Source of the DNA: an uncultured bacterium
GTDB taxonomy: Bacteria; Krumholzibacteriota; Krumholzibacteriia; Krumholzibacteriales; WJIX01
Reading direction: 5' to 3'
Assembly: GCA_964554125.1 (NCBI GenBank)
Contig: CAZKNG010000003.1
Span: forward strand, 2,971-66,970
DNA: 64,000 nt
Below, piece after piece: positions 2 through 48,711 of the stretch (position 1 is its first letter; every line of letters begins with the position of its first letter). The notes under the pieces were generated by a model. It was not told the origin of the DNA and made no database searches. It worked only from the letters and a program-made list of their open reading frames with translations. A program made the translations under genes and the position numbers.

Positions 2-433
2 TGTTGACTTCCATACGGGATTTTTAACGCCAATGGTCCAATGGTACTCACCGTCAATTAATCTCTTAACGAAAATATCCATAAGGGAGATATCTTTAAA
101 AAACAAGTACTTTCTGGTTTGAATTCTTATTATCCGCACCTGTCTTTTTTTGAAAGGTCCGGTGTTTTTTTTATATCTTCTTACATAAAATCTGTAACCC
201 TTTAACCAAAATTTCCACCTGCAGAAAAGTAATTTATTTTCATCTTTTTCGGTAATGGTAATATCCAGGTCATTATCCCAGGGTAACAGTCTGTTTTCAC
301 GCACAATTCCCAAAAGTGTGCCGGCTTCGAGAACATAACTTATATTACTGCTTTCAAGTATCTCCGCAACATCCTTGAGCATTTTTATTGCTTTTTTTGC
401 AATTACGCCTGTTAATTTTTTACTGCCGGCCAT
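2..433 (-). CDS. LicD-family protein (phosphocholine/phospho-alcohol transferase for surface glycans), N-terminal part only; the gene runs off the left window edge
   Basis: Not in the ORF track because it has no in-window stop. The reverse complement from ATG at 433 reads MAGSKKLTGVIAKKAIKMLKDVAEILESSNISYVLEAGTLLGIVRENRLLPWDNDLDITI..., with no stop down to position 2. It matches the LicD hallmark LEGGTLLGAVR...PWDDDIDI. Confidence 0.6.
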   Translation of the reverse strand, partial: MAGSKKLTGVIAKKAIKMLKDVAEILESSNISYVLEAGTLLGIVRENRLLPWDNDLDITITEKDENKLLFCRWKFWLKGYRFYVRRYKKNTGPFKKRQVRIIRIQTRKYLFFKDISLMDIFVKRLIDGEYHWTIGVKNPVWKST

Positions 434-447
434 TTAAAATCCCTATG

Positions 448-1491
448 TTATCTTAAGTAACCTTTTCTAAACCAACTATGATAAATTATCTGCATTTTTC
501 TGAACAGATTTAATGGTTTGCTTATTCTAGGAAGAATACCTCTATTCTTATTAACTTCTTCTAAAAATTGGATTATTCTTTCACTACTTTTCCCGTCAAT
601 ATAGGGATTTACATCATTTATATGTTTTTTGATTTGGTCTTCAAAGTTTTCGGAAAAAGCTCTATCCAGTGCTTTCCTCAATTTATCCGCTGAAGTTATA
701 TTTATGCCCTTATCTTCTCTACTTTTTGTCTTATAGGTTATTACGGGTTTTTGCAGTGTCAAAAATTCATAGATCACCGAGGAAGTATCTGAAATTAATA
801 CATCAGATATGTGAAGAAACGGTGTAATATCATAAGTATCAATTAATTTAATGTTTTTATTTTCAGAACTCTTTATTTTTTCTACCAGTTCTTTATTCAT
901 TAATTCATGAAATTTTATTAATAAAAATTCGTTTTCTTTAATATAAGATCCCAAGACCGGTAAGAGTTCTGTGGCAGATTCCATTTTTATGCTGAACGTT
1001 GGAGCGTAGAGAATGATGTTTTTATCTTCCGGAAGATCGAATTTCTTTTTCAAATTTTTTTCTTTATAATTCATAATGTAATCTATTTTTGGCCAACCTG
1101 TTTCTTTAACCAGAAAATAACCATATTTCTTTTGCATCCGGTTAAACCTCTTAGTTACAAATGGTCCACATGTAAAGTAAATATCAAAAAAATGCCTGAT
1201 TTTATAGTGAGATTCCTTCTCCACCCCCAAACCATGGAACAATTGTACTTTTAATCCCGGTAAACGAAAATCCACAAAATTGCCCGGTGATAAAACAAAA
1301 TCAGAATTGAATTTCTTTGCCTCTTCTAATGAATCCAGATTCTTGTTACTATCCCATTCATCGGGAAAAGAAGATTTTACTTTTTCTGAAGTATAAAAAG
1401 CATAATCAATTGTTTTTGATTTACACACCTTAATTAGGGGATCAACTACAGGTATGGAATACAATTTTGCGATATAGAATAATATTTTCAT
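448..1491 (-). CDS. CDP-glycerol glycerophosphotransferase (TagB/TagF family)
   Basis: 347 aa with the C-terminal motifs typical of the TagF family (…LISDTSSVIYEFLTLQKPVI…, YAPTF…). It lies in a glycan gene cluster. Confidence 0.65.
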   Translation of the reverse strand: MKILFYIAKLYSIPVVDPLIKVCKSKTIDYAFYTSEKVKSSFPDEWDSNKNLDSLEEAKKFNSDFVLSPGNFVDFRLPGLKVQLFHGLGVEKESHYKIRHFFDIYFTCGPFVTKRFNRMQKKYGYFLVKETGWPKIDYIMNYKEKNLKKKFDLPEDKNIILYAPTFSIKMESATELLPVLGSYIKENEFLLIKFHELMNKELVEKIKSSENKNIKLIDTYDITPFLHISDVLISDTSSVIYEFLTLQKPVITYKTKSREDKGINITSADKLRKALDRAFSENFEDQIKKHINDVNPYIDGKSSERIIQFLEEVNKNRGILPRISKPLNLFRKMQIIYHSWFRKGYLR

Positions 1492-2534
1492 AATATATTC
1501 AATAATTCTTTAAATTTGTCAAAAACCATTTCCGGAGTAATTCTAAAGGTGTTATCTCTGTCTTTATAATATTCAGTTAGAGTAAAATCCCAATCTCTAA
1601 TATATGTGTGTATTTTTTTATGCCAGGCAGTCCATTTCTTCGGATTGGTTTTCGGCCCGAATATTGTAACGGTCGGAGTTTCCATTGCTACCGCTAAGTG
1701 GTTAATACCTCCATCATTAGAAATATAAACATTCGTTTCTTTCAAAAGGGCACCGGCTTCATTAAAAGTTGTTGGAATTGCAATTACAGGTTTCTCTTTC
1801 ATATTCTCTTTTATATACTCAACATCCTTTTTTTCTCCGGGTCCCCAAAGTAGTACAACTTTAAACTCAGTATTTTGCATGATCAAATCACCTAATTCTG
1901 CAAAATTATCTAAATCCCATTGTTTTGCCAGAACCGGGGTTCCAGGAGAAAATACAACGAATTTGTTATTCTTAAGTCCTATATCAATCAGCCAATTATT
2001 GATTTTTCTGATTGATTCATTCTTAATCTTATAATAAGTATTATGCGGTACTTCTTCAATTCCCAAAGGTTTCAATAAATCAAATTTTGCACATGCATAA
2101 TAACGAAAATTATCGCGTTTCAATTTATAATTATACACCCAATTCCATCTTTTTTGAAACCATCCCAGTCTATATTTTGCGCCGCTATAAAGAGTTATTT
2201 GTGCTGAACCTGTTCCCCGTAATTGATCAATCAATAAATCATACTTTCTTTTTCTTACTAATCTCATTATCCTGAATCGTTCTAAAAGGTATGAAATAGT
2301 TTTTTTCTTTTTTTTCTTCATTAAAACCAGATTGTCTATATTTGGATTGTCTTCTAATAATGTAACATAGGGACTCTGAATTAAGTAATCTAATTGCGCG
2401 TCGGGAAATTTTTCTCTCAAAGATGGTAAATATCCTGTATTTAATAAAATATCACCAAATGGTTTATATTGAATGATCAAGATCTTTTTTATATGTTGCA
2501 GTTCCTGCTCAGGGATTTTATATTTCGGTTTCAT
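1488..2534 (-). CDS. Glycosyltransferase family 9 (ADP-heptose:LPS heptosyltransferase-like)
   Basis: 348 aa. It has a GT9 N-terminus (KKILIIQYKPFGDILLNTGYLPSL) and a C-terminal G-rich ADP-heptose binding region (YISNDGGINHLAVAM). It overlaps the upstream gene by 4 bp. Confidence 0.75.
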   Translation of the reverse strand: MKPKYKIPEQELQHIKKILIIQYKPFGDILLNTGYLPSLREKFPDAQLDYLIQSPYVTLLEDNPNIDNLVLMKKKKKKTISYLLERFRIMRLVRKRKYDLLIDQLRGTGSAQITLYSGAKYRLGWFQKRWNWVYNYKLKRDNFRYYACAKFDLLKPLGIEEVPHNTYYKIKNESIRKINNWLIDIGLKNNKFVVFSPGTPVLAKQWDLDNFAELGDLIMQNTEFKVVLLWGPGEKKDVEYIKENMKEKPVIAIPTTFNEAGALLKETNVYISNDGGINHLAVAMETPTVTIFGPKTNPKKWTAWHKKIHTYIRDWDFTLTEYYKDRDNTFRITPEMVFDKFKELLNIL

Positions 2535-2547
2535 ATTTCTTTCTTAA

Positions 2548-2931
2548 TTATTTTTTCTTATAATCCACATATTCTTTTTCTTCAACTAGATCAGATTTAA
2601 ATTTTAAATTTATTTCCTTTTTTTTTGCAGCTCTTTCATCATTCTCAATATATACACTTCTTGCTAATTTTATGAATTCTTTATCAAATTCTCTCTTAGC
2701 TTCTTTTATTCTTATATCATCTTCAATTTTCCACAATTTGAGATTAACATTTTTCAATTTTAAAAATTCTTTTGATTTTGAATTAATTCCAATTTTATTC
2801 ATGTAACTATATAATTTTTTGTACTCTTTTTTAACATTTTCCAATTTATCAGGATTTTTAAATTTTTCTTTTTTTATTTCTAAAATGGTCACTTTATCAA
2901 CTAATTCACCAATAGATACATCAATTTTCAT
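2548..2931 (-). CDS. Hypothetical lysine-rich small protein (127 aa) embedded between two heptosyltransferase genes
   Basis: An ORF with a predicted coiled-coil, K/E-rich composition. It is co-directional with and tightly spaced to the flanking GT9 genes. It contains an A9 homopolymer in coding sequence (plus-strand T9 at 2618-2626). Confidence 0.45.
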   Translation of the reverse strand: MKIDVSIGELVDKVTILEIKKEKFKNPDKLENVKKEYKKLYSYMNKIGINSKSKEFLKLKNVNLKLWKIEDDIRIKEAKREFDKEFIKLARSVYIENDERAAKKKEINLKFKSDLVEEKEYVDYKKK

Positions 2932-2960
2932 GATTTTTCTCCTTAGAAATTGTTTTTTAT

Positions 2961-3836
2961 TTAATTCAAATATTTTTTACTTCCAATTTTCTTAAGTAAA
3001 ATAGCAATATTCTCAATTACAACTTCATGAGTAATCTCTTTCATACAAGTCATATGTTCACAATCGCCTATTTTTTTATCCGAGTTATAACAAGGAGAAC
3101 AATATATTTTATTTGTGATGTTAATATTTTCTTGATATCCAGTACTTTCTTCTAAGATAACGCCTCCATAAATAATCACCGCTCTCTTTCCCACTGCTTT
3201 GGCAATATGCATTAATCCCCCTTCTAAACCAAAAAAGAATAATGAATTTTTTATAATTGCACCTGGATATCTTATATTTTTGCCTCTTCGGTCAATTACA
3301 TTATCTAAAAGAGTATCATTTTCTAATCCTATTTGCACAAATTTAATTTGCGGAAATGAATTGACCACTTTTTGAAATTTATCAAAACCCCATTCCTTTC
3401 TATTGCCACAAAATCCCTGTTTTCCGGTAGGACAAACAGCTATATAATCAAAATCAAACTCTTCTCTTACAGAATTAATTTCTTTTTCTGACAAATAGAT
3501 TTCAGGAGTCCCTTCAAAATTGAAACCGAAATATTGCATCATTTGCAAATAAACAGATTCGGTTTTATCGGGCCAGATGTGATATTTGGGACGGATAAAT
3601 TTCTTTGTTGTTTTAATATGTCTACTCGTCACCCAATCAGGATATGGATTATTCAAAAAAAGTTCGGGTTTAGATGTTTTAACAATTATTTTTTTATCAG
3701 GGTATTTCTTTCGCACATGAGGCAAAACTGATGACAGGAGTAAACTATCTCCAATTGCGCTTGAAAAACCCTTTATAAATATCGATCTGGGATGGATTAA
3801 ATAATAAATCAGTTTAATGTATTCAAATATTATCAT
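2961..3836 (-). CDS. Glycosyltransferase family 9 (heptosyltransferase-like)
   Basis: 291 aa with the C-terminal GT9 motif …FFFGLEGGLMHIAKAVGKRAVIIYGG…. Confidence 0.7.
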   Translation of the reverse strand: MIIFEYIKLIYYLIHPRSIFIKGFSSAIGDSLLLSSVLPHVRKKYPDKKIIVKTSKPELFLNNPYPDWVTSRHIKTTKKFIRPKYHIWPDKTESVYLQMMQYFGFNFEGTPEIYLSEKEINSVREEFDFDYIAVCPTGKQGFCGNRKEWGFDKFQKVVNSFPQIKFVQIGLENDTLLDNVIDRRGKNIRYPGAIIKNSLFFFGLEGGLMHIAKAVGKRAVIIYGGVILEESTGYQENINITNKIYCSPCYNSDKKIGDCEHMTCMKEITHEVVIENIAILLKKIGSKKYLN

Positions 3837-4918
3837 TTTATTCTACTCATAAAAAATTCTTCAACATCTTCAATCATTTTAGATTCAGTAAAATTATTTT
3901 TTAACGTATTTAATGCATTCTCTTTGAATTTTAAACGTAAGTCTACACTTTCTATTAGAGTTGATATTTTATCGATAAGGGAGTTAATGTTGCCAAAAGG
4001 ATATAAAAAACCATTTTCACCATCTTTAATAATTTCTCTTACTCCTCCTACATCAGTCGCAACTACAGGATTACCAACTGCAAAATATTCAACAATTGAA
4101 TTCGAAAATCCTTCTAATTTAGAAGTTAAAATTGATATATCATGAAGCGAAGAAATTAACATGGGATTTTCTGTAAACCCGTTGAAAATTACTTTTTCTT
4201 GTAGAGAAAGATTTTCAACCATCTCTTTAAGTTTCCACTTTTCCGTTCCATCACCTGTTATTAAAAGAATCCAATTGGGATATTCTGCCGAAATAGTTTT
4301 AAAAGCTTTTATTAAGTGATTAACATATTTAATTTTATGTAATCTGGTAGTTATTCCAATAATATTTTTATCATCAGAAATATTCAGTCTATTTCTTACT
4401 TCATCCAAAGCCTTTTTTCCAGGAAGAAAAGGTTCCCTCCCATTGTAAATAGTTGTAAATTCATTTTTATTCAGCCAGATATTTCCTTCCAATATTTTAT
4501 CAGAAACATAGTTACAAGGAACAATGCTATGTGAAACCAGGTATTTGTGATTAATTTTAGTTTTAAATCTCCTAAAAAAATCATCTTCTCTGCCTATTCT
4601 TCTTATATTAGGGATTTTACAAATTTTTGCCGCAATCCCTCCGATCCCAATCTCTTTTTCGATGTTAGTAAGGATCAAGTCGATATTATTTTTTTTAACA
4701 AAATAAACTAATTTTAAAATTTTAAGTATATTATAATCAGGACCCAGATTTTCTTTAATAATATTCACTTTATTATGAGAATTTTTGGCAAGGGCTGAAT
4801 TTTTATGAGTTAATATCCAGACGTCATGCCCATTCTTTTGAAGGCCAATGGCGGTCCTCTTCATCCAGGTTACAACACCGCGCCAACTTTTTTTTGAAGA
4901 AATATAAAGTATTCTCAT
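3833..4918 (-). CDS. Glycosyltransferase family 4 (GT-B, RfaG/WbuB-like)
   Basis: 361 aa. It has the GT4 C-terminal motif …GFSNSIVEYFAVGNPVVATDVGGVREIIKDGENGFL…. It overlaps its neighbours by 4 bp and 1 bp, consistent with an operon. Confidence 0.75.
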   Translation of the reverse strand: MRILYISSKKSWRGVVTWMKRTAIGLQKNGHDVWILTHKNSALAKNSHNKVNIIKENLGPDYNILKILKLVYFVKKNNIDLILTNIEKEIGIGGIAAKICKIPNIRRIGREDDFFRRFKTKINHKYLVSHSIVPCNYVSDKILEGNIWLNKNEFTTIYNGREPFLPGKKALDEVRNRLNISDDKNIIGITTRLHKIKYVNHLIKAFKTISAEYPNWILLITGDGTEKWKLKEMVENLSLQEKVIFNGFTENPMLISSLHDISILTSKLEGFSNSIVEYFAVGNPVVATDVGGVREIIKDGENGFLYPFGNINSLIDKISTLIESVDLRLKFKENALNTLKNNFTESKMIEDVEEFFMSRIK

Positions 4919-5751
4919 TATCTTTTCATAAATTCATTTTTAGAATATTCTTTAATTATTTTATTTTCAATTTCTATATATTTGTCTTCATAATCTGCTT
5001 CCCTTGTATTTAGATATTCCCAGTATTTAACATAAATTAAGAAATGGTAAAAACCACGCATTAAACTAATTAATAGTCCGTATATTCCGTCTTTATATCC
5101 CTTATATTTAAAATATCTTCTTCTAAATTCGTAAAACCCGCTTTTCATCATTTTAGGAATTGTGAATTTTTTATCTTTTTTAATCATTTTTTCTACTTCA
5201 AAATCAGTGTATCTATTTAACTTATCTATAAAATCTTTGCTGCCAGTATAACCAAAATGATACATTGAATTTTGCAAACCTTTTAAATAATACTTCCTGC
5301 CCTTCGTTTTAAAGTTCCCATGAACTTTATCTGAAGGTGTAACAAATCCTTTCTTAAAAAATCTCGGATGATAATCAGGATACCAACCTGTATGTTTAAT
5401 CCATTTACCAAAAATATGATTCTTATTTGGAATTTCTATAACATCATACTTATCCTCTTCTACTATTTTTCTTAGAGTGTTTGAAAGAGATAAAGGAATT
5501 CTTTCATCAGCATCCACAATAAGAATCCATTCACCATTGCATTTTTCTATACCGTATTTTCTAGCCGGTTCAACAAATCCTACTCGATTAAAAGAATAAA
5601 TATTCTCTGTATAATCTTCGCATATTTCAACAGTTTTATCATCACTGTTCATATCAATAACCACAATTTCATCAGCCCATTTTAGAGTTTGCAGACATGC
5701 TTTAATATTTCTTTCCTCATTAAAAGTATGTACTAGAGCTGTAATATTCAT
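4918..5751 (-). CDS. Glycosyltransferase family 2
   Basis: 277 aa. The N-terminal GT-A fold motifs are ALVHTFNEERNI…, VVIDMNSDDKT and IVDADERIP (a DxD-like motif). Confidence 0.75.
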   Translation of the reverse strand: MNITALVHTFNEERNIKACLQTLKWADEIVVIDMNSDDKTVEICEDYTENIYSFNRVGFVEPARKYGIEKCNGEWILIVDADERIPLSLSNTLRKIVEEDKYDVIEIPNKNHIFGKWIKHTGWYPDYHPRFFKKGFVTPSDKVHGNFKTKGRKYYLKGLQNSMYHFGYTGSKDFIDKLNRYTDFEVEKMIKKDKKFTIPKMMKSGFYEFRRRYFKYKGYKDGIYGLLISLMRGFYHFLIYVKYWEYLNTREADYEDKYIEIENKIIKEYSKNEFMKR

Positions 5752-6857
5752 ATTAGAAATCCTATACTAAATCTTGATAATAATCACTTTTTCTTCACTC
5801 TTTTTTGATATGACCTTAAAAAGTTTTATTATTTTTCTGTTTTTCAAGAATCTTAATTTCATTCTTTTAATTAATGAAAGATTTCTAACTTCTTTTATAA
5901 AGAAATAAGTATATTTTTTAATCCAGTATTCATAATTTTCTTCATTAATTGAAATTTGTTCATCTTTTATCCAATTAATATTACCATTCATGAATTCAGA
6001 ATTTCCATAAACTCCTATCCTATTTTCCTATCTAATATAAAATATTGGTCTTGAAGAAAATATCCCACATCCATTATAGAATATTTAACATCAACGTACT
6101 TGTATATTTACTTCACACCTTGATAACAATGTTATTCCCCATTTGAAAATAAAAACCGGCAACTTATTGGAATAACTTTAAACCCCCAATTATCTAAATA
6201 TGGACCGGAATAACCAATAGTATTAAATCCATTTTCTTTAAAATAATCAACGAATTTATTAATCCATATAAACTGGCGGTAATTTAAAATAAAGTGAGTA
6301 ATTTTGTTTAAGCGCAAAGAAAGATGGTGTATTCTTTAAAAAACTCTTTAGCAAAAGAAAGGAGAATACACCATGCAAGAATTAAACTTCTCTGGCCACA
6401 ATTTATCAGTGGATTTAAAAGAAGTCAAGAGTATGTTCAGGGATGAACTTAACAATGACTGTAGGTATATGGTAAAACGGGCATTTGAGAAGATTATTAA
6501 ATGTAAAGTAATGGGAATTTTCAAAGCACAAAAAGCTGTAAGAAAATCGTTATGAGCCTTTTCTTTTACTTTAATGGTAATTGGAATAACAGTAGAAGAG
6601 AAAGAATAGATCCTATTGCTCATTACTTTAAACAGGCAGCTTAAATGGAGAAATCGAAGAATGCATTATCTTCTTACAAACAATTCTTTACATTACCTGT
6701 CTCTGGGCATTCGAAAATACTGTTCTTTTCCGCATAGATCTTTCAGAGGGGGTTTAGAACGTCTTGTTGCCAAGATGTCTGGCATAATTTATATAAGAAA
6801 CAGGATTCCGTCCACCCGAATTATTAATAGATTAAGATCATAAAGAAGGAGTGCAAG

Positions 6858-8096
6858 ATGGTAAAAATCAAACCATTTAAAGGTCTCCGACCTTCAAAAG
6901 ACAAGGTTAAGGACGTAGCTTCTCCTCCATATGATGTTTTGAATCTGGAAGAAGCGAGAGTAAAGGTCGAAAACCAGCCACATAGTTTCTTACATGTTGT
7001 AAAACCCGAGATCGACCTGCCTAAAAACGTCGATCTTTACGATGATAAGGTTTATCAGAAAGGACGGGAAAATCTGCAAAATCTAATTAAAGAAAAAATT
7101 ATGGTTCAAGACAGTAAAGATTGTTATTACCTATACAAACTGGTCATGGATAATATTTCCGAGGTCGGTTTGGTTGCGTGTGCTTCAATTGAAGACTACG
7201 AAAAGGATGTAATAAAAAAACATGAGCATACTATAGCTATAAAAGAAGCAGATAGAATCAAACATGTAGATATTTTAAACGCCAACACTGGCCCTGTTTT
7301 TCTAACCTACAAGGCCAGAAAAGAGATAGATGAAATTTTTGAAAATGTTATGAGAGATAATCCCGTTTATGATTTTGAAGCTGAAGATGATGTAAAACAT
7401 ACTTTCTGGAAAATTTCGGATGATTCAACTATTGAAAAAATTACCGGGCAATTCAAAGAGATAAATAATCTCTATGTTGCCGATGGACATCATCGCTCGG
7501 CTTCGGGAACTATTGTTGGTCAAAGAAGACGAAAAGAAAATCCTAACCACACCGGCAATGAAGAATACAACTTCTTTTTGAGTGTAATTTTCCCTCATGA
7601 TCAATTATATATTATGGATTACAATCGAGTGGCTAAAGATTTTAACGGTCTGAAGAAAAATGAATTTTTGAATAAAGTTAGAGAAAAATTTGAACTTGAA
7701 CAATCGAAAGTCCCTCTTAAGCCACAAAAAAAGCATCGATTCGGGATGTATTTAGACGGTCAATGGTATAGATTAATTGCAAAAGAAGATAGTTTTGATT
7801 CGAATGACCCTGTAAAATCATTGGATGTCACTATTTTACAGAATAATCTTCTTACTCCTATCTTAAATATCGTAAACCCAAAAAAAGATAAAAAAATAGA
7901 TTTTATTGGTGGAATTCGAGGTTTAAGTGAACTGGAAAGACGTGTGAACGCTGGTGAATCAGTCGCTTTTTCCATGTTTCCCACTTCAATAGAAGAATTA
8001 ATGGAAATCGCCGATGCAGGAAAAATTATGCCGCCTAAATCCACCTGGTTCGAACCTAAACTACGTTCAGGAATTATTGTTCATCTTTTGGATTAG
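6858..8096 (+). CDS. DUF1015 family protein
   Basis: 412 aa. The N-terminus MVKIKPFKGLRPSKDKVKDVASPPYDVL is the characteristic DUF1015 start. The gene has a good RBS (AAGGAG) 7 nt upstream. Confidence 0.7.
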   Translation: MVKIKPFKGLRPSKDKVKDVASPPYDVLNLEEARVKVENQPHSFLHVVKPEIDLPKNVDLYDDKVYQKGRENLQNLIKEKIMVQDSKDCYYLYKLVMDNISEVGLVACASIEDYEKDVIKKHEHTIAIKEADRIKHVDILNANTGPVFLTYKARKEIDEIFENVMRDNPVYDFEAEDDVKHTFWKISDDSTIEKITGQFKEINNLYVADGHHRSASGTIVGQRRRKENPNHTGNEEYNFFLSVIFPHDQLYIMDYNRVAKDFNGLKKNEFLNKVREKFELEQSKVPLKPQKKHRFGMYLDGQWYRLIAKEDSFDSNDPVKSLDVTILQNNLLTPILNIVNPKKDKKIDFIGGIRGLSELERRVNAGESVAFSMFPTSIEELMEIADAGKIMPPKSTWFEPKLRSGIIVHLLD

Positions 8097-8593
8097 TCTC
8101 ATAACTACCTTCCGGAGAGAATTATATCTGCCTTTGGGTTATCATCCTTCTTTGAATTCTGCCGACGTCATCCCGGCTCTACAGGGTCAAGTGCCTACAG
8201 AAGAATAAGAGAGGCGAGGTCACCTGTGGATTTCCAAAAATGAGTTGTACTTTAAACTGGAATTTTCAGATCGATCAATTAGTCCCATTTGCCGGGTGAG
8301 GTGATAACTCGCCCGGGAATCTGAAACTTCTCTAAATAAACTTAACGCCAGAGCTTGACACAAACTATGCCACCGTCGAAATCGGCATCTACTTTTCTTC
8401 CGGAAATACTTGCAAAGGGATGTTAATTTGATGATTATTAATTGTGGCAGTTTCCTTTTATTAATGTTAGGATTATCTTATAACTATACTATACAGTCGT
8501 TTATAGAAGGGAACTGCTATTCTAATGAATTGTTCTGACTATATCAATTATGAAAATAAATTAAACACTTGAAGGTATTTGGAGTAATTTTTT

Positions 8594-9925
8594 ATGAATA
8601 TATTCTTTTTAACATCTGCAGCACCAAAGAGAGCTGGATTTGCCACATCGGAAAAAAGACCGCCTCTTGGCTTAGGATATCTTATGGCAACTCTCAAGAA
8701 AAAAAATCATAATCTATTTTTCAGCGATGAGTATTTAAGACCTTCAAATATTTTAGAAACAGATTTTTTAGAAAAAAATGATATAAATTTTGTTGGAATA
8801 TACTCAAATACTATATGTTATCCTTCTACTTTAAAAATGTTTGAAATTCTTAATGAGAAAAGGATAAACGAAGAATGGCATGGCAAAATAATGGTTGGCG
8901 GTCCGCATACATCAGTTGCTTATAATAAAATTCCGGAATATGTTGACTATATAGTAATTGGAGAAGGCGAAATTTCCGTTCCAAAGATAATTAATGGAGA
9001 AATTAAAGATAGAATTATCCATGGTGAAAAAGTTGAGGATATGGATGCTTTGCCTTTACCGGCATGGGAAGAATTTATTTACAGACCGTATGATTGGAGC
9101 TCTCCATGGTTTCCGGAAACATATCCAATATACACTTTAAATACAAGTCGTGGCTGCCCTTTTGATTGTACGTTTTGTTCTGTAAAAAAATTCTGGGGAA
9201 ACAAGTATAAATACATGAGTGCTCCCAGAATTGTAAATGATATTGAATATATGATAAAGACTTATGGTGCTAAAGGGATATATTTTAGAGAGGATCATTT
9301 TACATTAAATAAAAACAGGGTTGTGGAATTCTGCAACTTGCTTTTAAAGAAAAATATAAAAATTGATTGGTTTTGCGAATCGAGAGTTGACAATTTGAAT
9401 AACTTGGAATATCAGAAATTGATGTCCAAAGCAGGTTGCAGGGCTTTATACATAGGAGTTGAAAGTGGTAGCCCGAGAATGTTGGAATTTTATAAAAAGG
9501 GTGAAACTGTAGAACAATTTATAGAAAGTTTTAAAATATCAAAAAAAGCGGGAATAAAAACTTATGCAAGTTTTGTCGTGGGATTTCCTACTGAAACAGA
9601 AAAAGATATTAAATTAACAAACGAATTAATAGAAAGAATTAAGCCGGATTTTTATTCAAAGAATATTTTCCTCGGCATTCCCGGTAGCGAATTATACGAT
9701 TATTTAAAAGAAAATAAATTATATGAATATGAAGATAGTTCAGGAATTTTATATCCTAAAGGTTATTTAAAAAATGTAAAAAAATATTATAATAATAGTA
9801 GGTATTATAAAGTTTATGATAGAAATGGAAACAAAATAGATCCTAATAGAAGGAAACCGATATGGAAAAGGTCTTTTAGAAAAGAACTAAAAAGAGTATT
9901 TGGAAAAAGTTCAAAATGCATGTAG
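8594..9925 (+). CDS. B12-binding-domain radical SAM enzyme (class B rSAM)
   Basis: 443 aa. It has an N-terminal Rossmann-like cobalamin-binding region (…VGIYSNT…MVGGPHTS…) followed by a CxxxCxxC cluster (RGCPFDCTFCSV) and radical-SAM core motifs. Confidence 0.75.
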   Translation: MNIFFLTSAAPKRAGFATSEKRPPLGLGYLMATLKKKNHNLFFSDEYLRPSNILETDFLEKNDINFVGIYSNTICYPSTLKMFEILNEKRINEEWHGKIMVGGPHTSVAYNKIPEYVDYIVIGEGEISVPKIINGEIKDRIIHGEKVEDMDALPLPAWEEFIYRPYDWSSPWFPETYPIYTLNTSRGCPFDCTFCSVKKFWGNKYKYMSAPRIVNDIEYMIKTYGAKGIYFREDHFTLNKNRVVEFCNLLLKKNIKIDWFCESRVDNLNNLEYQKLMSKAGCRALYIGVESGSPRMLEFYKKGETVEQFIESFKISKKAGIKTYASFVVGFPTETEKDIKLTNELIERIKPDFYSKNIFLGIPGSELYDYLKENKLYEYEDSSGILYPKGYLKNVKKYYNNSRYYKVYDRNGNKIDPNRRKPIWKRSFRKELKRVFGKSSKCM

Positions 9926-10914
9926 ATGGTAATAATATTGATATTAGCGTTATAATGCCTGTTTATAACGCTCAAAAACACTTGAATGATGCAATAAATA
10001 GCATATTGTCCCAGACTTTAAATAATTTTGAGTTTATAATAATTGACGATTTCTCTACTGATTCAACCAAAGAAATAATTAATTGTTTTTTAAAAAAAGA
10101 TTCCAGAATCAGATATATAGAAAATGAAGAACAATTAGGTGTTACCAGGAGTTTGAATATTGGTATAGAGTTGGCAAAAGGAAAATATATCGCAAGGATG
10201 GATACAGATGACATTAGTTTGCCTGAAAGATTTATAAAACAGTTTGATTTTATGGAAAAAAATCCTGATGTAGGTGTATGCGGGTCTTATTATGAAATAT
10301 TTGGATCTAGAGAGAAAATTTTAAAAAATCCAGTTAATCATGATAAAATAAGAACCAGGTTATTTTTTAAACCATGTATTGGGCATCCAACAGTAATGAT
10401 GAGGTCTGAAATATTAAAGAAAGTAAAATATAATGAGAAATTCACTTCTGCACAAGATTATGATTTATGGGCTAGATTAGGAGAGATCACAAAGTTGTAT
10501 AATTATCCTGAAATCCTGCTTAAATATAGAAGTCACGATAAACAAATAAGCACGAAATCTAATACCCTCCAGACAAATATGGCTAATGAAGTGAGAAAAT
10601 ATTACCTGGAGAAACTGAATATTTCTCCTAATCAGAAGGAGTTGCTGGCATATAACTTCTTGTGCGACAATGAATATGATAAAGTAGATTTGAATAGCTT
10701 AGAGAGTTTTTTTTATGAAGTAATTTTAAAAAATAGAGAAATAATTTATTTTCCTATAAAAGAATTTGAGAAAATGATTATTTTGAAGTATTGGAGAGTG
10801 TGTAAAGAAAAAGGGGGGGAAGGAGTTAAAAGCTTTAGAAATAGTAAGTTATCAAATAATATACCATATCCTTTTTCAATATATATAAAATCACTTCTAT
10901 ATTCGATATTTTAA
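9916..10914 (+). CDS. Glycosyltransferase family 2
   Basis: 332 aa with the motifs ISVIMPVYNAQKHL…, FEFIIIDDFSTDST and ARMDTDDIS. It overlaps the upstream rSAM gene by 10 bp, which suggests translational coupling. Confidence 0.75.
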   Translation: MHVDGNNIDISVIMPVYNAQKHLNDAINSILSQTLNNFEFIIIDDFSTDSTKEIINCFLKKDSRIRYIENEEQLGVTRSLNIGIELAKGKYIARMDTDDISLPERFIKQFDFMEKNPDVGVCGSYYEIFGSREKILKNPVNHDKIRTRLFFKPCIGHPTVMMRSEILKKVKYNEKFTSAQDYDLWARLGEITKLYNYPEILLKYRSHDKQISTKSNTLQTNMANEVRKYYLEKLNISPNQKELLAYNFLCDNEYDKVDLNSLESFFYEVILKNREIIYFPIKEFEKMIILKYWRVCKEKGGEGVKSFRNSKLSNNIPYPFSIYIKSLLYSIF

Positions 10915-11114
10915 AGGGATTTGCTCTTTATGTGTTTGGCAAATTCAACCAATAATTGCAATTGAGTCATTATGCGGCCTTCCTTGAACAATATCCATTG
11001 AAAATCTCATCAGTTGGTTCATAATAAAGACGGCTGACCTTTTTCTCTTTAACCTTTTTTAAATTGCACTTGTTATTTGAAATCAAAAATTTAAAAATTC
11101 AGATTTTATCCGTA

Positions 11115-11148
11115 TAAAAAAGGGGATCCCTTATTGAGGACCCCCTTC
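11115..11148 (-). terminator. Rho-independent terminator downstream of the porin gene
   Basis: The minus strand reads GGAAGGGGGTCC…GGATCCCCTT followed by TTTTTTATACGG. Confidence 0.55.
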
Positions 11149-11178
11149 CTTCGAACTGTTTCCCGGCAGCAGATCTTC

Positions 11179-12447
11179 CTATCTTATTGCCGCTTTAAGC
11201 GCAAACTGCACCCGGAAGCAGTCATATTCATCAGAGTCTGTTGTGGTAGTTACTCCTCCGCTGTTTTCTCTTGTAGTCCACTTTGTCTTCAGATATGAAA
11301 ATTCTAACATACCTGTAATATTATCTGTTATCCCGTACATCGCGTTCGCGAAGATAAGGGAGTTCATATCGCGGAATCCTGTGCTCCCGCCTTTCGGAAG
11401 ATCATATTCATCTTCGTCCGGGTCGTCGAAAGAATAACCTGTGTTAAAAGTCAACCTGGAAGAGGGCTTCACTGAAAGCATCCCCCATCCACCCATTGTG
11501 GGAAGCGGCTCATATATATCGTCTGTGTTCTGAAGGGCGCCTCCGAAATAAGTCTTAAGCGCCTGACCTATAAAGTATTCACCCTTGATCGATATATGTT
11601 TGTTGAATCTGAGCTCTAAATCACCGTTAAATGACCATGAATCGATACTTTCTTCCGTGACTTTTTCCGGTGAAGCTGTCTCATCTGTTCTATTATATTT
11701 CTCCTGTCCGTAATGACCGGATACTCCGAGTGAGAGCTTTCCTTCTTCAGAGAATTCAGATGCGATTCCAACCCTTCCCTGTACTGCGGGCATTGCTGCG
11801 TCGGCGCCGTTGTCAACACCGTCTCCAGCGTTTACATTTATAGTGTCGTTGTAACCAATGCTGAAATCTCCGCCCATATTTCTGGTAACGGCAAGATCCA
11901 GCAAAACCTCAGCTCCTCCGTTAATATCTGTCCATGTAGAGAATCTCACCTGGGGTCTTCTGTATCCGATATTCCCTTCGCCCCATGCCACACTGTAATT
12001 TACTGTCTTCGGCACCAGAGGGGAGATGACATCCCAGGTCTGACCCGCGAGAACAGACCATTTCTTACCTGCCATCTTGAAATAGGCGTGTCTCAGCATA
12101 GGGGTTGCCTTATTCTCAGCGCTTGCCCCGCCTCCGTAGAAATCGAATTCCAGGGTAGCCTGTGTTTTTACACATTCTTCATTCCAGAAAAAGTCGAAAC
12201 CCAACCTGCTCTCCCTGGTACTGAAATAGAGGGCGTTGTCAGCTTCATCATATCTCGGAACGTAGATATGAAAATTACCCGGATAGATCCGGGCGTTGTC
12301 ATAGGCAATGTCGGATTTGAAGTAGCCGTGGAATTTGAATTGATATTTTCCGCATTTCTTAGCGCACTCCCCGCCGCTGACATCCAGCGCAGGAAGGGAC
12401 AAAGCGAAAACGGCTATAAGTAAATAGAGTGTTATTTTATTCCTCAT
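11179..12447 (-). CDS. Outer-membrane beta-barrel protein / putative porin
   Basis: 422 aa. It has a signal peptide (MRNKITLYLLIAVFALSLPALDVSG), alternating amphipathic beta-strand patterns, and an AGGAG RBS. Confidence 0.55.
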   Translation of the reverse strand: MRNKITLYLLIAVFALSLPALDVSGGECAKKCGKYQFKFHGYFKSDIAYDNARIYPGNFHIYVPRYDEADNALYFSTRESRLGFDFFWNEECVKTQATLEFDFYGGGASAENKATPMLRHAYFKMAGKKWSVLAGQTWDVISPLVPKTVNYSVAWGEGNIGYRRPQVRFSTWTDINGGAEVLLDLAVTRNMGGDFSIGYNDTINVNAGDGVDNGADAAMPAVQGRVGIASEFSEEGKLSLGVSGHYGQEKYNRTDETASPEKVTEESIDSWSFNGDLELRFNKHISIKGEYFIGQALKTYFGGALQNTDDIYEPLPTMGGWGMLSVKPSSRLTFNTGYSFDDPDEDEYDLPKGGSTGFRDMNSLIFANAMYGITDNITGMLEFSYLKTKWTTRENSGGVTTTTDSDEYDCFRVQFALKAAIR

Positions 12448-39638: not shown

Positions 39639-40082
39639 ATTGACCTCCCTGTTGACCTGTAATCTTTTCTATTCTATTATAAAATAAACGCTGACAAATC
39701 TGACGGCACCAGCATATCTCTACCGGAGTGAACATCTTTCTCACACAACGGTCAATATACTCTATATATTTATCCGAATCAAAATTGATTGTCCATAAAA
39801 AAGATAAAATCGTTACCACTGGATAAGCTTTTTCTTCTTAAAAAATAAATTCCCTTCAAAATGAGACCTTAATATTTATCGATTGTACCCTCATCAGCAA
39901 CTTTGAAGTTTACCCAACATTTTATATTTATCAACATAAATGTAACTACTTTCAGTTAAAAAACTTATATCCTCTTTTCATATCTTATCACTATAAGATT
40001 GATAAAATCACAACTTTGTGTATAATTAATAATGCTTGGGAACTTCTTTTTTACCGGTCTGATTCTAATTCGGGGGTGCAAG

Positions 40083-43681
<3,599 letters not shown>

Positions 43682-45525: not shown

Positions 45526-46158
45526 TCAGCTCTCGATATATCTGAAGTAATTTATACAGGTATTCCCGAACTTTTTAGCTTTATATTTCTCCATAGGCTG
45601 GTCGCTTACAGATTCCAGCTCCTTGCTGCTTTCAATTACAAGAAGCCCGCATATCTTTCTTCCGGCTCCGTTTATGACCTTTAAAATCTCCTCGGCATAG
45701 CTGCTCTTATATGGAGGATCAGCAATTATTATATCGTACCTGTACCCCTTTAAAACAGCCTTCTTGAGAAAACGGACAGAGTCGGTCCTTATAACTTCAG
45801 CGTGATCGGAACTGAATCGGCATTTTTCAATATTTGATCTTATAGCTTTTACGGCGTTTCTGTTAATCTCCACAAAAGTAGATTTCTCAGCGCCCCGGCT
45901 CAAAGCTTCTATACCGAGACCCCCGGAGCCCGAAAAAAGGTCAAGCACAACAGAACCCTCTACTTCATTCTGCAGGTGATCAAAAACAGAACCCTTTACT
46001 AATTGTGTAGTAGGCCGGAAATCCTTCCCCCTTGCTCCTTTAAGCTTGGTTCCACCCTTCTTTCCGGATATTACTTTCAAACTCAGCCTTTCGAGAAAAC
46101 CCAGATTCAGCAGATTGCGCAAACACTTCAGCATAAATAAGATTCTCGGCGCGGGCAA
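45526..46158 (-). CDS. rsmD: 16S rRNA (guanine966-N2)-methyltransferase RsmD
   Basis: The motifs are …RPTTQLVKGSVFDHL…, DLFSGSGGLGIEALSRGA and IIIADPPY. The true start is probably internal to the listed ORF. Confidence 0.75.
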   Translation of the reverse strand: MPAPRILFMLKCLRNLLNLGFLERLSLKVISGKKGGTKLKGARGKDFRPTTQLVKGSVFDHLQNEVEGSVVLDLFSGSGGLGIEALSRGAEKSTFVEINRNAVKAIRSNIEKCRFSSDHAEVIRTDSVRFLKKAVLKGYRYDIIIADPPYKSSYAEEILKVINGAGRKICGLLVIESSKELESVSDQPMEKYKAKKFGNTCINYFRYIES

Positions 46159-46183
46159 GTAAAATCATTTTTCTCCACCGCAT

Positions 46184-48236: not shown

Positions 48237-48237
48237 C

Positions 48238-48711
48238 TTAATCTCCTTTTTCCTTCTCACCCTCTAGGTTCAGAGTTATACTGTTAGTTTGTCCGTACGA
48301 TCTTACTCGCGCTATCAGGGAACGTTCTGAAACGGAAACAATACTCCCATTCCTTATCGGATCCCCTACCTTTAATATATGACCAATTCCATTTCTGTCT
48401 TCGAGCATGGCGTATTTTTCCATTCCTCCGGAAAGCACACCAACCAGGCTGACCTTCTGGATATTAATAAGATCGGAGCTGCCTTCCTCAAAATCGCCGG
48501 ACACAAGGCTCTGAAAGGGGTCTCTGTGGTTAAACGCCTGATAATAATAATGTTTTGTTCTAAGATTATCCTGTCCGTCTCTCTTTTCCGCCGCAAAAGC
48601 TGTCTGGGGCAGCAGTAATCCCAGAAAAATTAAATAAACCGTTAATCTTTCCCATACCACTGAGGTATTATCAGGATTTGTCTTTATTCTTAACATCCGA
48701 AATCTCACCAC
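48238..48711 (-). CDS. pilP: PilP-like pilus assembly lipoprotein/periplasmic protein
   Basis: A ~150 aa signal-peptide protein located between pilO and pilQ. The assignment is by position and size. Confidence 0.5.
   Translation of the reverse strand: MVRFRMLRIKTNPDNTSVVWERLTVYLIFLGLLLPQTAFAAEKRDGQDNLRTKHYYYQAFNHRDPFQSLVSGDFEEGSSDLINIQKVSLVGVLSGGMEKYAMLEDRNGIGHILKVGDPIRNGSIVSVSERSLIARVRSYGQTNSITLNLEGEKEKGD

What the first reader, a model, noticed from the sequence alone, without database searches (positions are those of the whole stretch)
8594..10914. Translationally coupled B12-binding radical SAM enzyme and GT2 glycosyltransferase
Class B (cobalamin-dependent) rSAM enzymes typically do difficult methylations on unactivated carbons. 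A 10-bp overlap with a GT2 inside a glycan island suggests a C-methylated or otherwise radical-modified sugar being transferred to LPS or capsule. Such a modification is rarely characterised biochemically.
Basis: partly seen in the sequence, partly recalled or inferred. Interest (0 to 1): 0.5.

Follow-up and report, generated by a model that had tools for sequence, protein, structure and literature searches.

The report
Radical SAM and glycosyltransferase sugar-tailoring pair
A radical SAM enzyme with a vitamin-B12-type domain and the glycosyltransferase gene that overlaps it belong to a widespread, uncharacterised gene pair (often fused into one giant protein) found in bacterial surface-sugar and flagellin-sugar loci, so it probably makes an unusual modified sugar whose chemistry is unknown.

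Summary
ORF 8594..9925 (443 aa) has a B12-binding-type domain, a radical SAM core and a CxxxCxxC motif. ORF 9916..10914 (332 aa) is a GT2 glycosyltransferase. They overlap by 10 bp (ATGCATGTAG).

The pair lies at the edge of a low-GC (28-35%) LPS-type glycan island in a Candidatus Krumholzibacteriota MAG. A related genome carries a different set of glycosyltransferases at the same place.

The overlap alone is weak evidence; the comparative data are strong:
- Of 78 distinct relatives with downstream sequence, 37 have a GT2 fused directly C-terminal to the rSAM domain, in proteins up to about 3,000 aa.
- Another 27 have a GT2 as the next gene on the same strand.
- Contexts are Wzm/Wzt O-polysaccharide loci, LPS-core loci and flagellar loci (fliD, flhB, pseudaminic-acid genes).
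- A class I methyltransferase often sits upstream or is fused, but is absent here.

The rSAM matches no characterised family; BchE, HpnJ, PhpK, AprD4, MgmA and the KedN5-type C-methylases all score far below their cut-offs. Its best structural neighbour is AprD4, which acts on a sugar and does not bind cobalamin. The next neighbours are cobalamin-dependent methylases.

So a role in glycan tailoring is well supported. C-methylation and cobalamin use remain inferences.

The parts
8594..9925 (+). Radical SAM gene, 443 aa: N-terminal B12-binding-type Rossmann domain, radical SAM core, conserved C-terminal region (to about aa 409) and a non-conserved basic tail.
   Evidence: ORF list. Pfam PF02310 and PF04055. 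AlphaFold2 model with pLDDT 92.8 and pTM 0.88. 48-73% identity to 79 relatives.
8660..8983 (+). B12-binding-type domain (aa 23-130). It carries the family-invariant loop motifs EKRPPLGLG (20-28), F43/D45/Y47, NTIC (72-75), GGPH (102-105) and GEGE (123-126).
9155..9178 (+). CxxxCxxC motif (C188, C192, C195), ligands of the radical SAM [4Fe-4S] cluster.
   Evidence: Motif position. Invariant in 52 and in 80 aligned relatives.
9140..9619 (+). Radical SAM core (aa 183-342), with invariant FREDHFT (231-237), WFCESR (259-264) and VESGS (289-293).
   Evidence: Pfam PF04055, 6.8e-25. Invariant columns. Aligns to the core of AprD4, MgmA and OxsB.
9824..9925 (+). Non-conserved basic helical tail of the rSAM (aa 411-443) plus the stop codon. 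It occupies the position of the 9-28 aa linker in the fused relatives.
   Evidence: Conservation 0.01. Helix 423-442 at lower pLDDT. Linker lengths in 37 fusions, median 15 aa.
9916..9925 (+). 10-bp overlap ATGCATGTAG: the GT2 start codon lies inside the last codons of the rSAM gene. Translational coupling is likely.
   Evidence: Sequence. Unfused relatives show gaps from -38 to +310 bp, 12 of 27 within +/-10 bp.
9916..10914 (+). GT2 glycosyltransferase gene, 332 aa: SpsA/WcaA/EpsE-like soluble GT-A domain (about aa 10-216) plus a C-terminal region of about 115 aa that is conserved only in the closest relatives.
   Evidence: Pfam PF00535, 7.7e-38. NCBIfam gives only sub-threshold EpsE/TuaG/WcaA matches. 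PDB sequence matches: chondroitin synthase K4CP C-terminal domain, SpsA. 42-48% identity to the GT2 that follows the rSAM in L006, L010 and L008.
10201..10209 (+). DxD motif (D96-T97-D98 within MDTDD) of the GT2. The other GT-A motifs are DDFSTD (aa 44-49) and QDYDLW (aa 180-185).
   Evidence: Motif positions. Reading them as metal/nucleotide-sugar binding and catalytic-base motifs rests on general knowledge of GT-A GT2 enzymes.
8097..8593 (.). 497-bp non-coding spacer upstream of the rSAM; presumed promoter region of the two-gene operon. 8097-8400 has genome-like GC (0.441); 8401-8593 has GC 0.269.
   Evidence: No ORF, no Rfam hit including no cobalamin riboswitch, and no excess RNA structure. 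The methyltransferase gene that precedes the rSAM in many relatives is absent here.
10915..11071 (.). Right edge of the variable island. Homology to the related Krumholzibacteriota genome starts at 11072.
   Evidence: blastn: window 11072-12493 matches L093 at 85.5% identity; nothing to the left matches. In the related genome a different glycosyltransferase cluster without an rSAM follows the same outer-membrane protein gene.
2..5751 (-). Remainder of the low-GC glycan island: LicD-like fragment (2..433), glycerophosphotransferase-family gene (448..1491), GT9 (1488..2534), DUF6165 (2548..2931), GT9-like (2961..3836), GT4 (3833..4918), GT2 (4918..5751). These probably build the oligosaccharide that the rSAM-GT2 pair decorates.
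   Evidence: Pfam and NCBIfam. Six-frame reading of 2..433. The same gene families accompany the 72%-identical rSAM in L006, where an MsbA-like ABC transporter follows.

Best explanation
The two genes form a portable two-enzyme glycan-tailoring cassette. It sits at the edge of a horizontally exchanged LPS core/outer-core island in a Krumholzibacteriota genome. The GT2 is an inverting GT-A enzyme of the SpsA/WcaA type. It most likely adds a common sugar from a nucleotide-sugar donor to the lipid-linked oligosaccharide at the cytoplasmic face of the membrane. The rSAM cleaves SAM at its C188/C192/C195 [4Fe-4S] cluster to give a 5'-deoxyadenosyl radical, abstracts a hydrogen from an unactivated carbon of that sugar, and converts the sugar into a modified residue. 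The most likely chemistry is methyl transfer from methylcobalamin held in the N-terminal domain, giving a C-methyl sugar. The overlapping start and stop codons keep the two enzymes co-expressed. In many other lineages the two have become a single polypeptide joined by a 9-28 residue flexible linker.

Shown here: the gene structures and motifs, the conserved order and the fusions, the glycan, O-polysaccharide and flagellar contexts, and the failure to meet the cut-off of any characterised family.

Inferred: the target is a sugar; modification follows transfer; cobalamin is used; the reaction is a methylation.

My estimates for the sub-claims: glycan tailoring together with the GT2, about 0.9; an LPS target in this organism, about 0.7; cobalamin use, about 0.65; action after transfer, about 0.55; C-methylation, about 0.45.
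For: 1. Architecture and motifs, with a confident model.
2. Of 81 distinct relatives, 78 have downstream sequence. In 37 a GT2 is fused directly C-terminal to the rSAM domain, and in 27 a GT2 is the next same-strand gene (82% together). Five more have a GT2 of the same subfamily 2-4 genes downstream.
3. Pfam confirms the fusions, for example carbamoyltransferase-methyltransferase-B12-rSAM-GT2x3-TPR in L050 (2478 aa) and B12-rSAM-GT2-...-GT4-GT2x3 in L069. Database-wide, most 50%-identity representatives of the family are proteins of 700-3088 aa.
4. The domains fused alongside are glycan-tailoring or glycan-building enzymes: O-methyltransferase-like, carbamoyltransferase, GT2, GT4, GT9.
5. The contexts are all cytoplasmic glycan assembly. 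Wzt-type ABC ATPases occur in 22 of 81 loci. The Geobacter locus reads Wzm-Wzt(Wzt_C)-rSAM-GT2x4-GT4-GT9. FliD, FlhB, FliR or flagellin occur in 5-8 loci. One relative sits among pseudaminic-acid and Maf genes.
6. Within these loci, the GT2 next to the rSAM scores a median of 155 bits against the window GT2, compared with 48 bits for the other 159 GT2 domains (P = 1e-21).
7. No conserved nucleotide-sugar pathway travels with the pair, and the nearest GT2 relatives function without an rSAM. Both points argue for an ordinary donor sugar and tailoring after transfer.
8. The rSAM is 72% identical to its L006 counterpart, whereas the partner GT2 is 48% and the other island genes 25-31% identical. 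This points to one strongly constrained chemistry carried between different glycans.
9. Solved structures with cobalamin (MgmA, TsrM, CysS, OxsB) are among the top structural neighbours. The profile aligns the GGP...GEGE part of the N-terminal domain to MgmA.
Against: - The family is remote from the KedN5-type C-methylase model, the nearest available proxy for the sugar C-methylases GenK/Fom3 (29.5 bits against a 700-bit cut-off).
- Class I methyltransferases frequently accompany the rSAM, so methyl groups in these glycans need not come from it.
- No substrate, product or cofactor was observed.
- The AlphaFold2 model of a fused relative gives no confident interdomain arrangement (pTM 0.62, disordered linker).
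- No lipid A, Kdo or transporter gene is seen inside the window next to the pair, so the LPS assignment rests on GT9 genes and on synteny with L006 and L093.
Confidence: 0.6

Rival explanations
1. The rSAM is a glycan-tailoring enzyme but not a methylase. It would perform a radical dehydration/deoxygenation like AprD4, or a ring contraction or carbocycle-forming rearrangement of the sugar like HpnJ or OxsB. The N-terminal Rossmann domain would then be a vestigial or substrate-binding module, or would hold cobalamin in a non-methyl role.
Against: Identity to AprD4 is only 20%, and the NCBIfam AprD4 model scores 99.8 bits against a 500-bit cut-off. HMMER aligns only the core of AprD4, not its N-terminal domain, whereas the family's N-terminal domain passes the Pfam B12-binding threshold and is as conserved as the core. 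No AprD3-type reductase partner appears among the recurrent neighbour families.
Confidence: 0.3
2. The rSAM acts before glycosyl transfer. It would convert a nucleotide sugar into a modified donor that its dedicated GT2 then transfers. This is the reading implied by the first reader.
For: Tight pairing and fusion of the rSAM with one particular GT2 type. DesII is a precedent for a radical SAM enzyme acting on a TDP-sugar (PMC11434129 listed; own knowledge).
Against: The nearest relatives of the GT2 (40-55% identity, none of the top 120 fused to an rSAM) occur in loci without any rSAM, for example L096 and L097, and in aerobic isolates. The GT2 is therefore not a specialised clade for an exotic donor. 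The characterised enzymes nearest to this rSAM act on the assembled molecule, not on nucleotide sugars: AprD4 by sequence and fold, and HpnJ as a sub-threshold match (own knowledge of both mechanisms). GenK also acts after assembly but is remote in sequence.
Confidence: 0.3
3. The pair is a chain-terminating cap module of ABC-transporter-dependent polysaccharide synthesis. The GT2 would add the last residue and the rSAM would mark it, creating the non-reducing-end epitope read by the carbohydrate-binding domain of Wzt. This would be functionally analogous to WbdD.
For: Wzt-type ATPases lie upstream in 22 of 81 loci, five of them immediately upstream. Those checked by Pfam carry the Wzt_C binding module (L014/L091, L020 and L095). 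In Geobacter the rSAM follows wzt directly, the position wbdD holds in E. coli O9a (own knowledge; WbdD paper PMC3482155 listed), and no other tailoring enzyme is present in that locus.
Against: The window shows no wzm or wzt; its relatives L006 and L093 end in an MsbA-type transporter. The same module occurs in flagellar loci, where no Wzt is involved. No coiled-coil ruler or terminator was demonstrated.
Confidence: 0.2
4. The adjacency is coincidental. The rSAM would serve a non-glycan pathway (lipid, cofactor, peptide or RiPP) and merely sit in a gene-dense island.
For: Sub-threshold similarity to ApyD (RiPP), the ladderane-lipid rSAM, BchE and PhpK.
Against: All of these scores are 3-5 times below their cut-offs. 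There are 37 direct fusions to GT2 among 78 relatives, and many more in the database. No precursor-peptide, lipid or tetrapyrrole genes recur in the 81 neighbourhoods.
Confidence: 0.04

Closest known systems
HpnI / HpnJ / HpnK of hopanoid side-chain biosynthesis (GT2 + B12-type radical SAM + deacetylase)
   Same: A GT2 paired with a B12-binding-type radical SAM enzyme. In that system the GT2 attaches a sugar (GlcNAc) and the rSAM then remodels the attached sugar ring (own knowledge, Schmerk et al. 2015). HpnJ is among the better sub-threshold matches (122 bits).
   Different: The HpnJ model cut-off is 577.6 bits, so the window protein is not HpnJ. No hopanoid genes or HpnK-type deacetylase are nearby. 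The acceptor here is a surface oligo- or polysaccharide or flagellin glycan, not bacteriohopanetetrol. Fusion to multiple glycosyltransferases is, to my knowledge, not known for HpnJ.
AprD4 (apramycin 3'-deoxygenation; PDB 6fd2)
   Different: About 20% identity. The NCBIfam AprD4 model scores 99.8 bits against a 500-bit cut-off. AprD4 does not bind cobalamin (PMC12931638) and HMMER does not align its N-terminal domain. It works with the reductase AprD3 in an antibiotic pathway, not with a GT2 in envelope glycan synthesis.
GenK / GenD1 / Fms7 (cobalamin-dependent C-methylases of aminoglycoside sugars)
   Same: Class B radical SAM enzymes that C-methylate unactivated sugar carbons after glycoside assembly.
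   Different: Remote in sequence: the KedN5-type C-methylase model, the only proxy available, gives 29.5 bits against a 700-bit cut-off. They belong to secondary metabolism, are not fused to glycosyltransferases, and are not found in LPS or flagellar loci.
MgmA/QCMT (PDB 9ccb), TsrM, CysS and OxsB (solved cobalamin-dependent radical SAM enzymes)
   Different: 14-24% identity. Their substrates are a protein glutamine, tryptophan, a carrier-bound methoxy group and a nucleotide. All equivalog models score far below their cut-offs.
WbdD and the multidomain O-polysaccharide synthases of ABC-transporter-dependent pathways (E. coli O9a, Klebsiella)
   Same: Tailoring and glycosyltransferase modules combined in large multidomain proteins encoded next to wzm-wzt. 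Terminal modification controls export (PMC3482155 and PMC11231755, listed; own knowledge).
   Different: Those systems use class I methyltransferase, kinase or Kdo-transferase modules. A radical SAM module did not appear together with these pathways in my searches: none of the 12 papers listed uses the term 'radical SAM'.

Membership tests
Radical SAM superfamily (PF04055) | CxxxCxxC motif for the [4Fe-4S] cluster within a partial TIM-barrel core | tested here: met
   C188/C192/C195. Pfam 88.6 bits against a 29.5 cut-off. Invariant in 80 relatives. The model core superposes on many radical SAM structures.
Class B (cobalamin-dependent) radical SAM enzymes | N-terminal Rossmann-type B12-binding domain preceding the radical SAM core | tested here: met
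Class B (cobalamin-dependent) radical SAM enzymes | Actual binding and use of cobalamin | not testable with these tools
   AprD4, the closest structure, shares the layout but binds no cobalamin (PMC12931638). Strong conservation of the N-terminal-domain loops suggests a ligand but does not identify it.
   131.1 bits against a cut-off of 481.35. No tetrapyrrole genes in the window.
HpnJ (hopanoid-associated radical SAM) | Score at or above the TIGR03471 cut-off, and hopanoid (hpn/shc) gene context | tested here: not met
   122 bits against 577.6. The neighbours are glycan genes, with no hpn or shc genes.
AprD4-family 1,2-diol dehydratase | Score at or above the NF033070 cut-off | tested here: not met
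   99.8 bits against 500. 19-20% identity in the structural alignment.
PhpK / Sden_1168 P-methyltransferases | Score at or above the TIGR04479 / NF038361 cut-offs | tested here: not met
   144.2 bits against 600, and 97 bits against 575. Only the rSAM core aligns to the PhpK model (aa 179-358). No phosphonate genes were noted.
KedN5-type methylcobalamin-dependent C-methyltransferases (proxy for GenK/Fom3) | Score at or above the NF033712 cut-off | tested here: not met
   29.5 bits against 700. No GenK-specific model was available, so direct membership of the GenK clade was not tested.
MgmA / QCMT (TIGR04014) | Score at or above the equivalog cut-off | tested here: not met
   99 bits against 360.
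GT2 glycosyltransferases (GT-A fold, inverting) | PF00535 domain with the DxD motif and the acidic catalytic motif | tested here: met
   130.5 bits against 23.3. DDFSTD 44-49, MDTDD 95-99, QDYDLW 180-185. Nearest solved relatives are K4CP and SpsA. No NCBIfam equivalog is reached (EpsE 131.7 bits against 450).
The uncharacterised rSAM-GT2 module family described here | Ortholog-level similarity of the rSAM (at least about 48% identity over aa 1-409, all near-invariant positions kept), followed by or fused to a GT2 | tested here: met
   The window protein keeps all 79 positions that are at least 97% conserved in 80 sequences. The GT2 follows with a 10-bp overlap. 64 of 78 relatives share the arrangement.

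The most novel reading that the evidence does not exclude
This is one member of a large, unrecognised clade of B12-type radical SAM enzymes that is hard-wired to glycosyltransferases. The two are adjacent, translationally coupled, or fused, in synthases of up to about 3,000 residues that can also carry methyltransferase, carbamoyltransferase, GT4, GT9 and TPR modules. The clade would install a radical-derived sugar modification with no described precedent in cell-surface glycans, such as a C-alkylated, deoxygenated or ring-rearranged residue. The modification would occur in the LPS/O-polysaccharides and flagellin glycans of anaerobic bacteria across many phyla. In the Wzm/Wzt systems it might form the terminal cap read by the transporter.
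Probability: 0.35. Interest if true: 0.75.

Novelty: new variant of a known kind. Interest (0 to 1): 0.55.

Why it matters
Radical SAM chemistry on sugars is known from antibiotic pathways (GenK, AprD4, DesII) and hopanoid side chains (HpnJ). [quoted passage not shown]

Here the link between the rSAM and glycosyl transfer rests on domain fusion in dozens of lineages. The family is unusually conserved for a glycan-locus gene: 72% identity where its neighbours share 25-48%.

This gives a concrete, testable entry point to an unknown sugar modification. The modification could alter the antigenicity, phage susceptibility or export signalling of envelope and flagellar glycans in anaerobes. The work would also add a new reaction or substrate class to class B radical SAM enzymology.

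For the window itself the practical message is modest: an intact two-gene tailoring cassette at the edge of a strain-variable LPS island.

Tried and rejected
- **Cobalamin riboswitch or other RNA upstream of the rSAM:** Rfam at E <= 1 over 5700-11300 gave only two chance snoRNA-like hits. Folding 8097-8400 on both strands gave z-scores of -0.47 and -0.15.
- **Module-type class I methyltransferase in the window:** none. The only weak hit (17.5 bits) lies at 45529-46164 and is unrelated.
- **Remnant coding sequence in the 497-bp spacer:** none of 60 aa or more. There was no blastn match to any fetched locus.
- **Promoter and terminator scan of 8000-11300:** not above shuffled expectation and uninformative for this phylum.
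- **Genome-contig scan with the single protein:** The metagenome scan with the alignment was far more productive.
- **The idea that the partner GT2 is a clade exclusive to the rSAM:** rejected. It is distinct from the other GT2 domains in the same loci. However, its nearest database relatives are stand-alone GT2s, some in loci with no rSAM.
- **AlphaFold2 of a fused relative (P0138) to look for a fixed rSAM-GT2 interface:** both domains are confident, but pTM is 0.62 and the linker is disordered, so the result is inconclusive.
- **afdb50 fold search to find cultured hosts:** the library was unavailable.
- **Seven literature searches** combining radical SAM or cobalamin with O-antigen, glycosyltransferase, flagellin glycosylation, polysaccharide, Leptospira rfb, AprD4 and Wzt found no description of this family.
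- **Membership in BchE, HpnJ, PhpK, ApyD, AprD4, MgmA, HpnR, BzaD or the KedN5-type family:** rejected on curated cut-offs.
Full report
**1. The observation**

The window has two co-directional ORFs at the reported coordinates: 8594..9925 (443 aa) and 9916..10914 (332 aa).
- The first ends ...TGC ATG TAG. The second starts at the ATG at 9916, so the two genes share the ten bases ATGCATGTAG.
- The only other in-frame start for the second ORF (Met14) would delete the first strand of the GT-A fold, so the overlap is real.
- Pfam gives Radical_SAM (88.6 bits) and B12-binding (34.2 bits, just above the 32.1 cut-off) for the first ORF, and Glycos_transf_2 (130.5 bits) for the second.
- The cluster-binding motif is C188-x3-C192-x2-C195.
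- The GT2 has DDFSTD, MDTDD (DxD) and QDYDLW motifs. Its nearest solved relatives are the C-terminal domain of chondroitin synthase K4CP and SpsA, so it is an ordinary soluble GT-A enzyme.

Short overlaps are common in operons, so the overlap by itself says little.

**2. Setting**

Exact-sequence look-ups place the window in a Candidatus Krumholzibacteriota (Krumholzibacteriaceae) MAG; the contig on record is 73 kb.
- GC is 0.28-0.35 from position 1 to about 11071 and 0.44 beyond.
- The low-GC block carries, on the minus strand, a LicD-like fragment, a glycerophosphotransferase-family gene, a GT9, DUF6165, a GT9-like gene, a GT4 and a GT2.
- On the plus strand it carries DUF1015, a 497-bp spacer, and then the rSAM-GT2 pair.
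- A related Krumholzibacteriota genome (GCA_034520215.1) is syntenic from fabF to the 422-aa outer-membrane protein gene. DNA homology (85.5%) stops at window position 11072.
- Beyond that point the other genome has a different set of glycosyltransferases ending in an MsbA-type transporter, with no rSAM.

The pair therefore lies 158 bp inside the edge of a strain-variable LPS-type glycan island.

**3. The rSAM family**

The protein has thousands of homologues. The best 120 are 55-72% identical, almost all from metagenomes or MAGs: Geobacter, Desulfobacterales, Desulfuromonadales, Deferrisomatales, Nitrospiraceae and Muiribacteriota. JGI labels several of them 'O-antigen biosynthesis protein'.
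- An alignment of 52 members has 63% mean column identity.
- In 80 sequences spanning 48-73% identity, 79 positions are at least 97% conserved. The N-terminal Rossmann domain is as conserved as the catalytic core (0.58 against 0.61). The last 33 residues of the window protein are not conserved.
- No curated family claims it. Scores against cut-offs: PhpK 144/600, ApyD 140/750, BchE 131/481, HpnJ 122/578, AprD4 100/500, MgmA 99/360, HpnR 70/650, KedN5-type 29.5/700.

**4. Comparative genomics: the main result**

I fetched 80 metagenome loci with the family alignment, plus loci around named homologues.

*Order and fusion*
- Of 81 distinct rSAM-bearing ORFs, 78 have downstream sequence.
- In 37 a GT2 domain is fused directly C-terminal to the rSAM domain. 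In 27 a GT2 is the next same-strand gene. Five more have a GT2 of the same subfamily 2-4 genes downstream, usually after an inserted methyltransferase.
- Against a local background of about 20% GT2 genes, 27 of 41 unfused cases gives P of about 2e-10.
- Pfam confirms the fusions:
  - L050 (2478 aa): carbamoyltransferase-methyltransferase-B12-rSAM-GT2x3-TPR.
  - L069 (2193 aa): B12-rSAM-GT2-...-GT4-GT2x3.
  - L017, L047 and L053 are similar.
- An independent search with a fused query found dozens of further rSAM-GT2 proteins. They come from Syntrophorhabdus, Chitinispirillaceae, Geobacteraceae, Syntrophales, Clostridiales, Omnitrophota, Cloacimonetes and one archaeal MAG, and one is also fused to a GT9 domain.
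- In an exhaustive profile search of 1.84 billion representatives, most of the top 45 hits are 700-3088 aa long.
- In fusions the linker between the conserved rSAM end and the GT2 start is 9-28 residues (median 15). That is the region occupied in the window by the non-conserved tail and the gene overlap.

*Methyltransferase*
- A class I methyltransferase precedes the rSAM or is fused N-terminal to it in 36 of 73 cases, and lies within two genes in 46 of 81.
- It is absent from the window and from the Geobacter locus, so it is an accessory.

**5. Contexts of relatives**

All contexts are cytoplasmic glycan assembly.
- Wzt-type ABC ATPases are present in 22 of 81 loci, nearly always upstream; those I checked by Pfam also carry the Wzt_C carbohydrate-binding module. 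In two Geobacter assemblies the order is wzm-wzt-rSAM-GT2-GT2-GT2-GT2-GT4-flavoprotein-GT9.
- The giant fusions are typically followed by fliD and flhB, with flagellin and fliR nearby.
- A 72%-identical relative (L008) sits among csrA, a Maf-type (MptE-like) gene and pseudaminic-acid genes, which is a flagellin-glycosylation island.
- Another 72% relative (L006) sits in a GT2/GT4/GT9/glycerophosphotransferase/MsbA cluster that resembles the window's island in gene families.
- Between the window and L006 the rSAM is 72% identical, the partner GT2 48% and the other shared families 25-31%. The rSAM is the constrained, portable element.

**6. The GT2 partner**
- Within the loci, the GT2 next to the rSAM scores a median of 155 bits against the window GT2, compared with 48 bits for the other 159 GT2 domains (Mann-Whitney P = 1e-21). 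So one GT2 type is recruited.
- The association is asymmetric. The 120 best database matches to the window GT2 (37-55% identity) include no rSAM fusion and include isolates such as Flavobacterium, Paenibacillus, Peribacillus and Sulfurovum.
- Two of three neighbourhoods I inspected have no rSAM within 5 kb.
- No nucleotide-sugar pathway recurs with the pair.

I read this as an ordinary donor sugar with optional tailoring after transfer, as with HpnI then HpnJ and with the aminoglycoside enzymes. This is an inference.

**7. Structure**
- The AlphaFold2 model is confident (pLDDT 92.8, pTM 0.88).
- AprD4 is a 1,2-diol dehydratase acting on the sugar ring of paromamine. According to a 2026 review it does not bind cobalamin (PMC12931638).
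- HMMER aligns only the core of AprD4 to the family profile, whereas MgmA aligns from the GGP...GEGE part of the N-terminal domain.

The data therefore do not settle cobalamin use. The highly conserved loops at the C-terminal ends of the Rossmann strands argue for a bound ligand, and I put cobalamin at about 0.65. A model of a fused relative gave no fixed interdomain geometry (pTM 0.62, disordered linker).

**8. Mechanism I commit to**
- The GT2 extends the lipid-linked oligosaccharide (here probably an LPS core or outer core, flipped by an MsbA-type transporter as in L006 and L093) with a common sugar.
- The rSAM reductively cleaves SAM, abstracts a hydrogen from an unactivated carbon of that residue and modifies it.
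- Methyl transfer from methylcobalamin is the single most likely outcome (about 0.45).
- Dehydration/deoxygenation or ring rearrangement is the main alternative (about 0.3).

The step 'rSAM works with the GT2 in glycan synthesis' rests on fusion and synteny (about 0.9). The remaining steps are inferred. In Wzm/Wzt loci the position just after wzt, and the absence of other tailoring genes in Geobacter, make a chain-terminating cap role conceivable (about 0.2). Nothing in the window itself requires that.

**9. Comparison with known systems and novelty**

The module works most like HpnI/HpnJ and like the post-glycosylation sugar tailoring by AprD4 or GenK. It resembles WbdD-type modular O-polysaccharide enzymes in organisation. 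It is a member of none of these by the curated criteria.

Seven literature searches found no description of a radical SAM module in O-antigen, LPS or flagellin glycan assembly. [quoted passage not shown]

I rate it a new variant of a known kind: class-B-type radical SAM sugar tailoring moved into envelope and flagellar glycan synthesis and physically fused to glycosyltransferases. Interest is moderate (0.55). It is not astonishing to a specialist, but it is a well-defined, widespread and experimentally tractable unknown.

Noticed in passing
L050 6884-14320, L068 1262-10291 (runs off the contig), L044, L065, L069, L088; database proteins P0377 (3088 aa), P0390 (2333 aa): Giant multidomain ORFs (750 to more than 3000 aa) that combine carbamoyltransferase and/or methyltransferase, B12-rSAM, three to six GT2 domains, sometimes GT4 or GT9, and TPR repeats. 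They often sit immediately upstream of fliD and flhB, so they are presumably flagellin glycan synthases.
   Followed up: partly
P0426 (2096 aa), P0433 (2279 aa), P0434 (2331 aa), P0498 (2012 aa): More distant relatives in which the family profile matches three or four separate stretches of one protein. This points to several tandem B12-type radical SAM domains in a single polypeptide.
   Followed up: no
L023 11482-12969; L090 15036-16316; L095 9365-10774; L022 13203-14579: A second, more distant B12-binding radical SAM paralogue occurs in 9 of 81 loci and is also flanked by GT2 genes. More than one radical SAM subfamily has therefore been recruited to glycan loci.
   Followed up: partly
window 8097-8400: A 304-bp stretch with genome-like GC (0.441) inside the low-GC island. 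It has no ORF, no Rfam hit, no excess RNA structure and no match to any fetched locus. It may be a relic between two separately acquired low-GC blocks.
   Followed up: yes
window 11072 (island edge); L093 13128-21611: Homology to a related Krumholzibacteriota genome (GCA_034520215.1) ends 107 bp beyond the outer-membrane protein gene. The other genome carries a different glycosyltransferase set (Caps_synth, GT2-LicD, GT2, GT4, GT2, GT4, MsbA). This is a hypervariable LPS locus at a fixed chromosomal site.
   Followed up: yes
window 2-433 (-) and 448-1491 (-): A LicD-like fragment at the window edge and a CDP-glycerol glycerophosphotransferase-family gene. Together they suggest phosphocholine or glycerol/ribitol-phosphate decoration of the same glycan.
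   Followed up: no
window 5752-6857: An AT-rich junction between the divergent halves of the island. It holds only short ORFs (74 aa, 60 aa) and an apparent gene fragment at 6135-6335 (-). It may be debris from recombination or an insertion sequence.
   Followed up: no
window 6858-8096 (+): A DUF1015 gene (388 bits) with intermediate GC (0.349) lies between the two glycan blocks. It did not appear among the recurrent neighbour families in the 81 related loci, so it is probably not part of the module.
   Followed up: partly
window 2548-2931 (-); L096 2426-2803; L004 4-330: The small DUF6165 protein recurs in glycosyltransferase clusters (next to GT9 here, two genes upstream of a GT11 gene in L096). 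It may be an uncharacterised accessory of LPS-core-type loci.
   Followed up: no
window 40032-41315 (+); 46245-48260 (-); 17921-20131 (-): Outside the island there is a bacterial serpin (365 bits), a PilQ-type secretin with an AMIN domain, and a 736-aa DUF4954/DUF6819 protein next to a SIS-domain gene.
   Followed up: no
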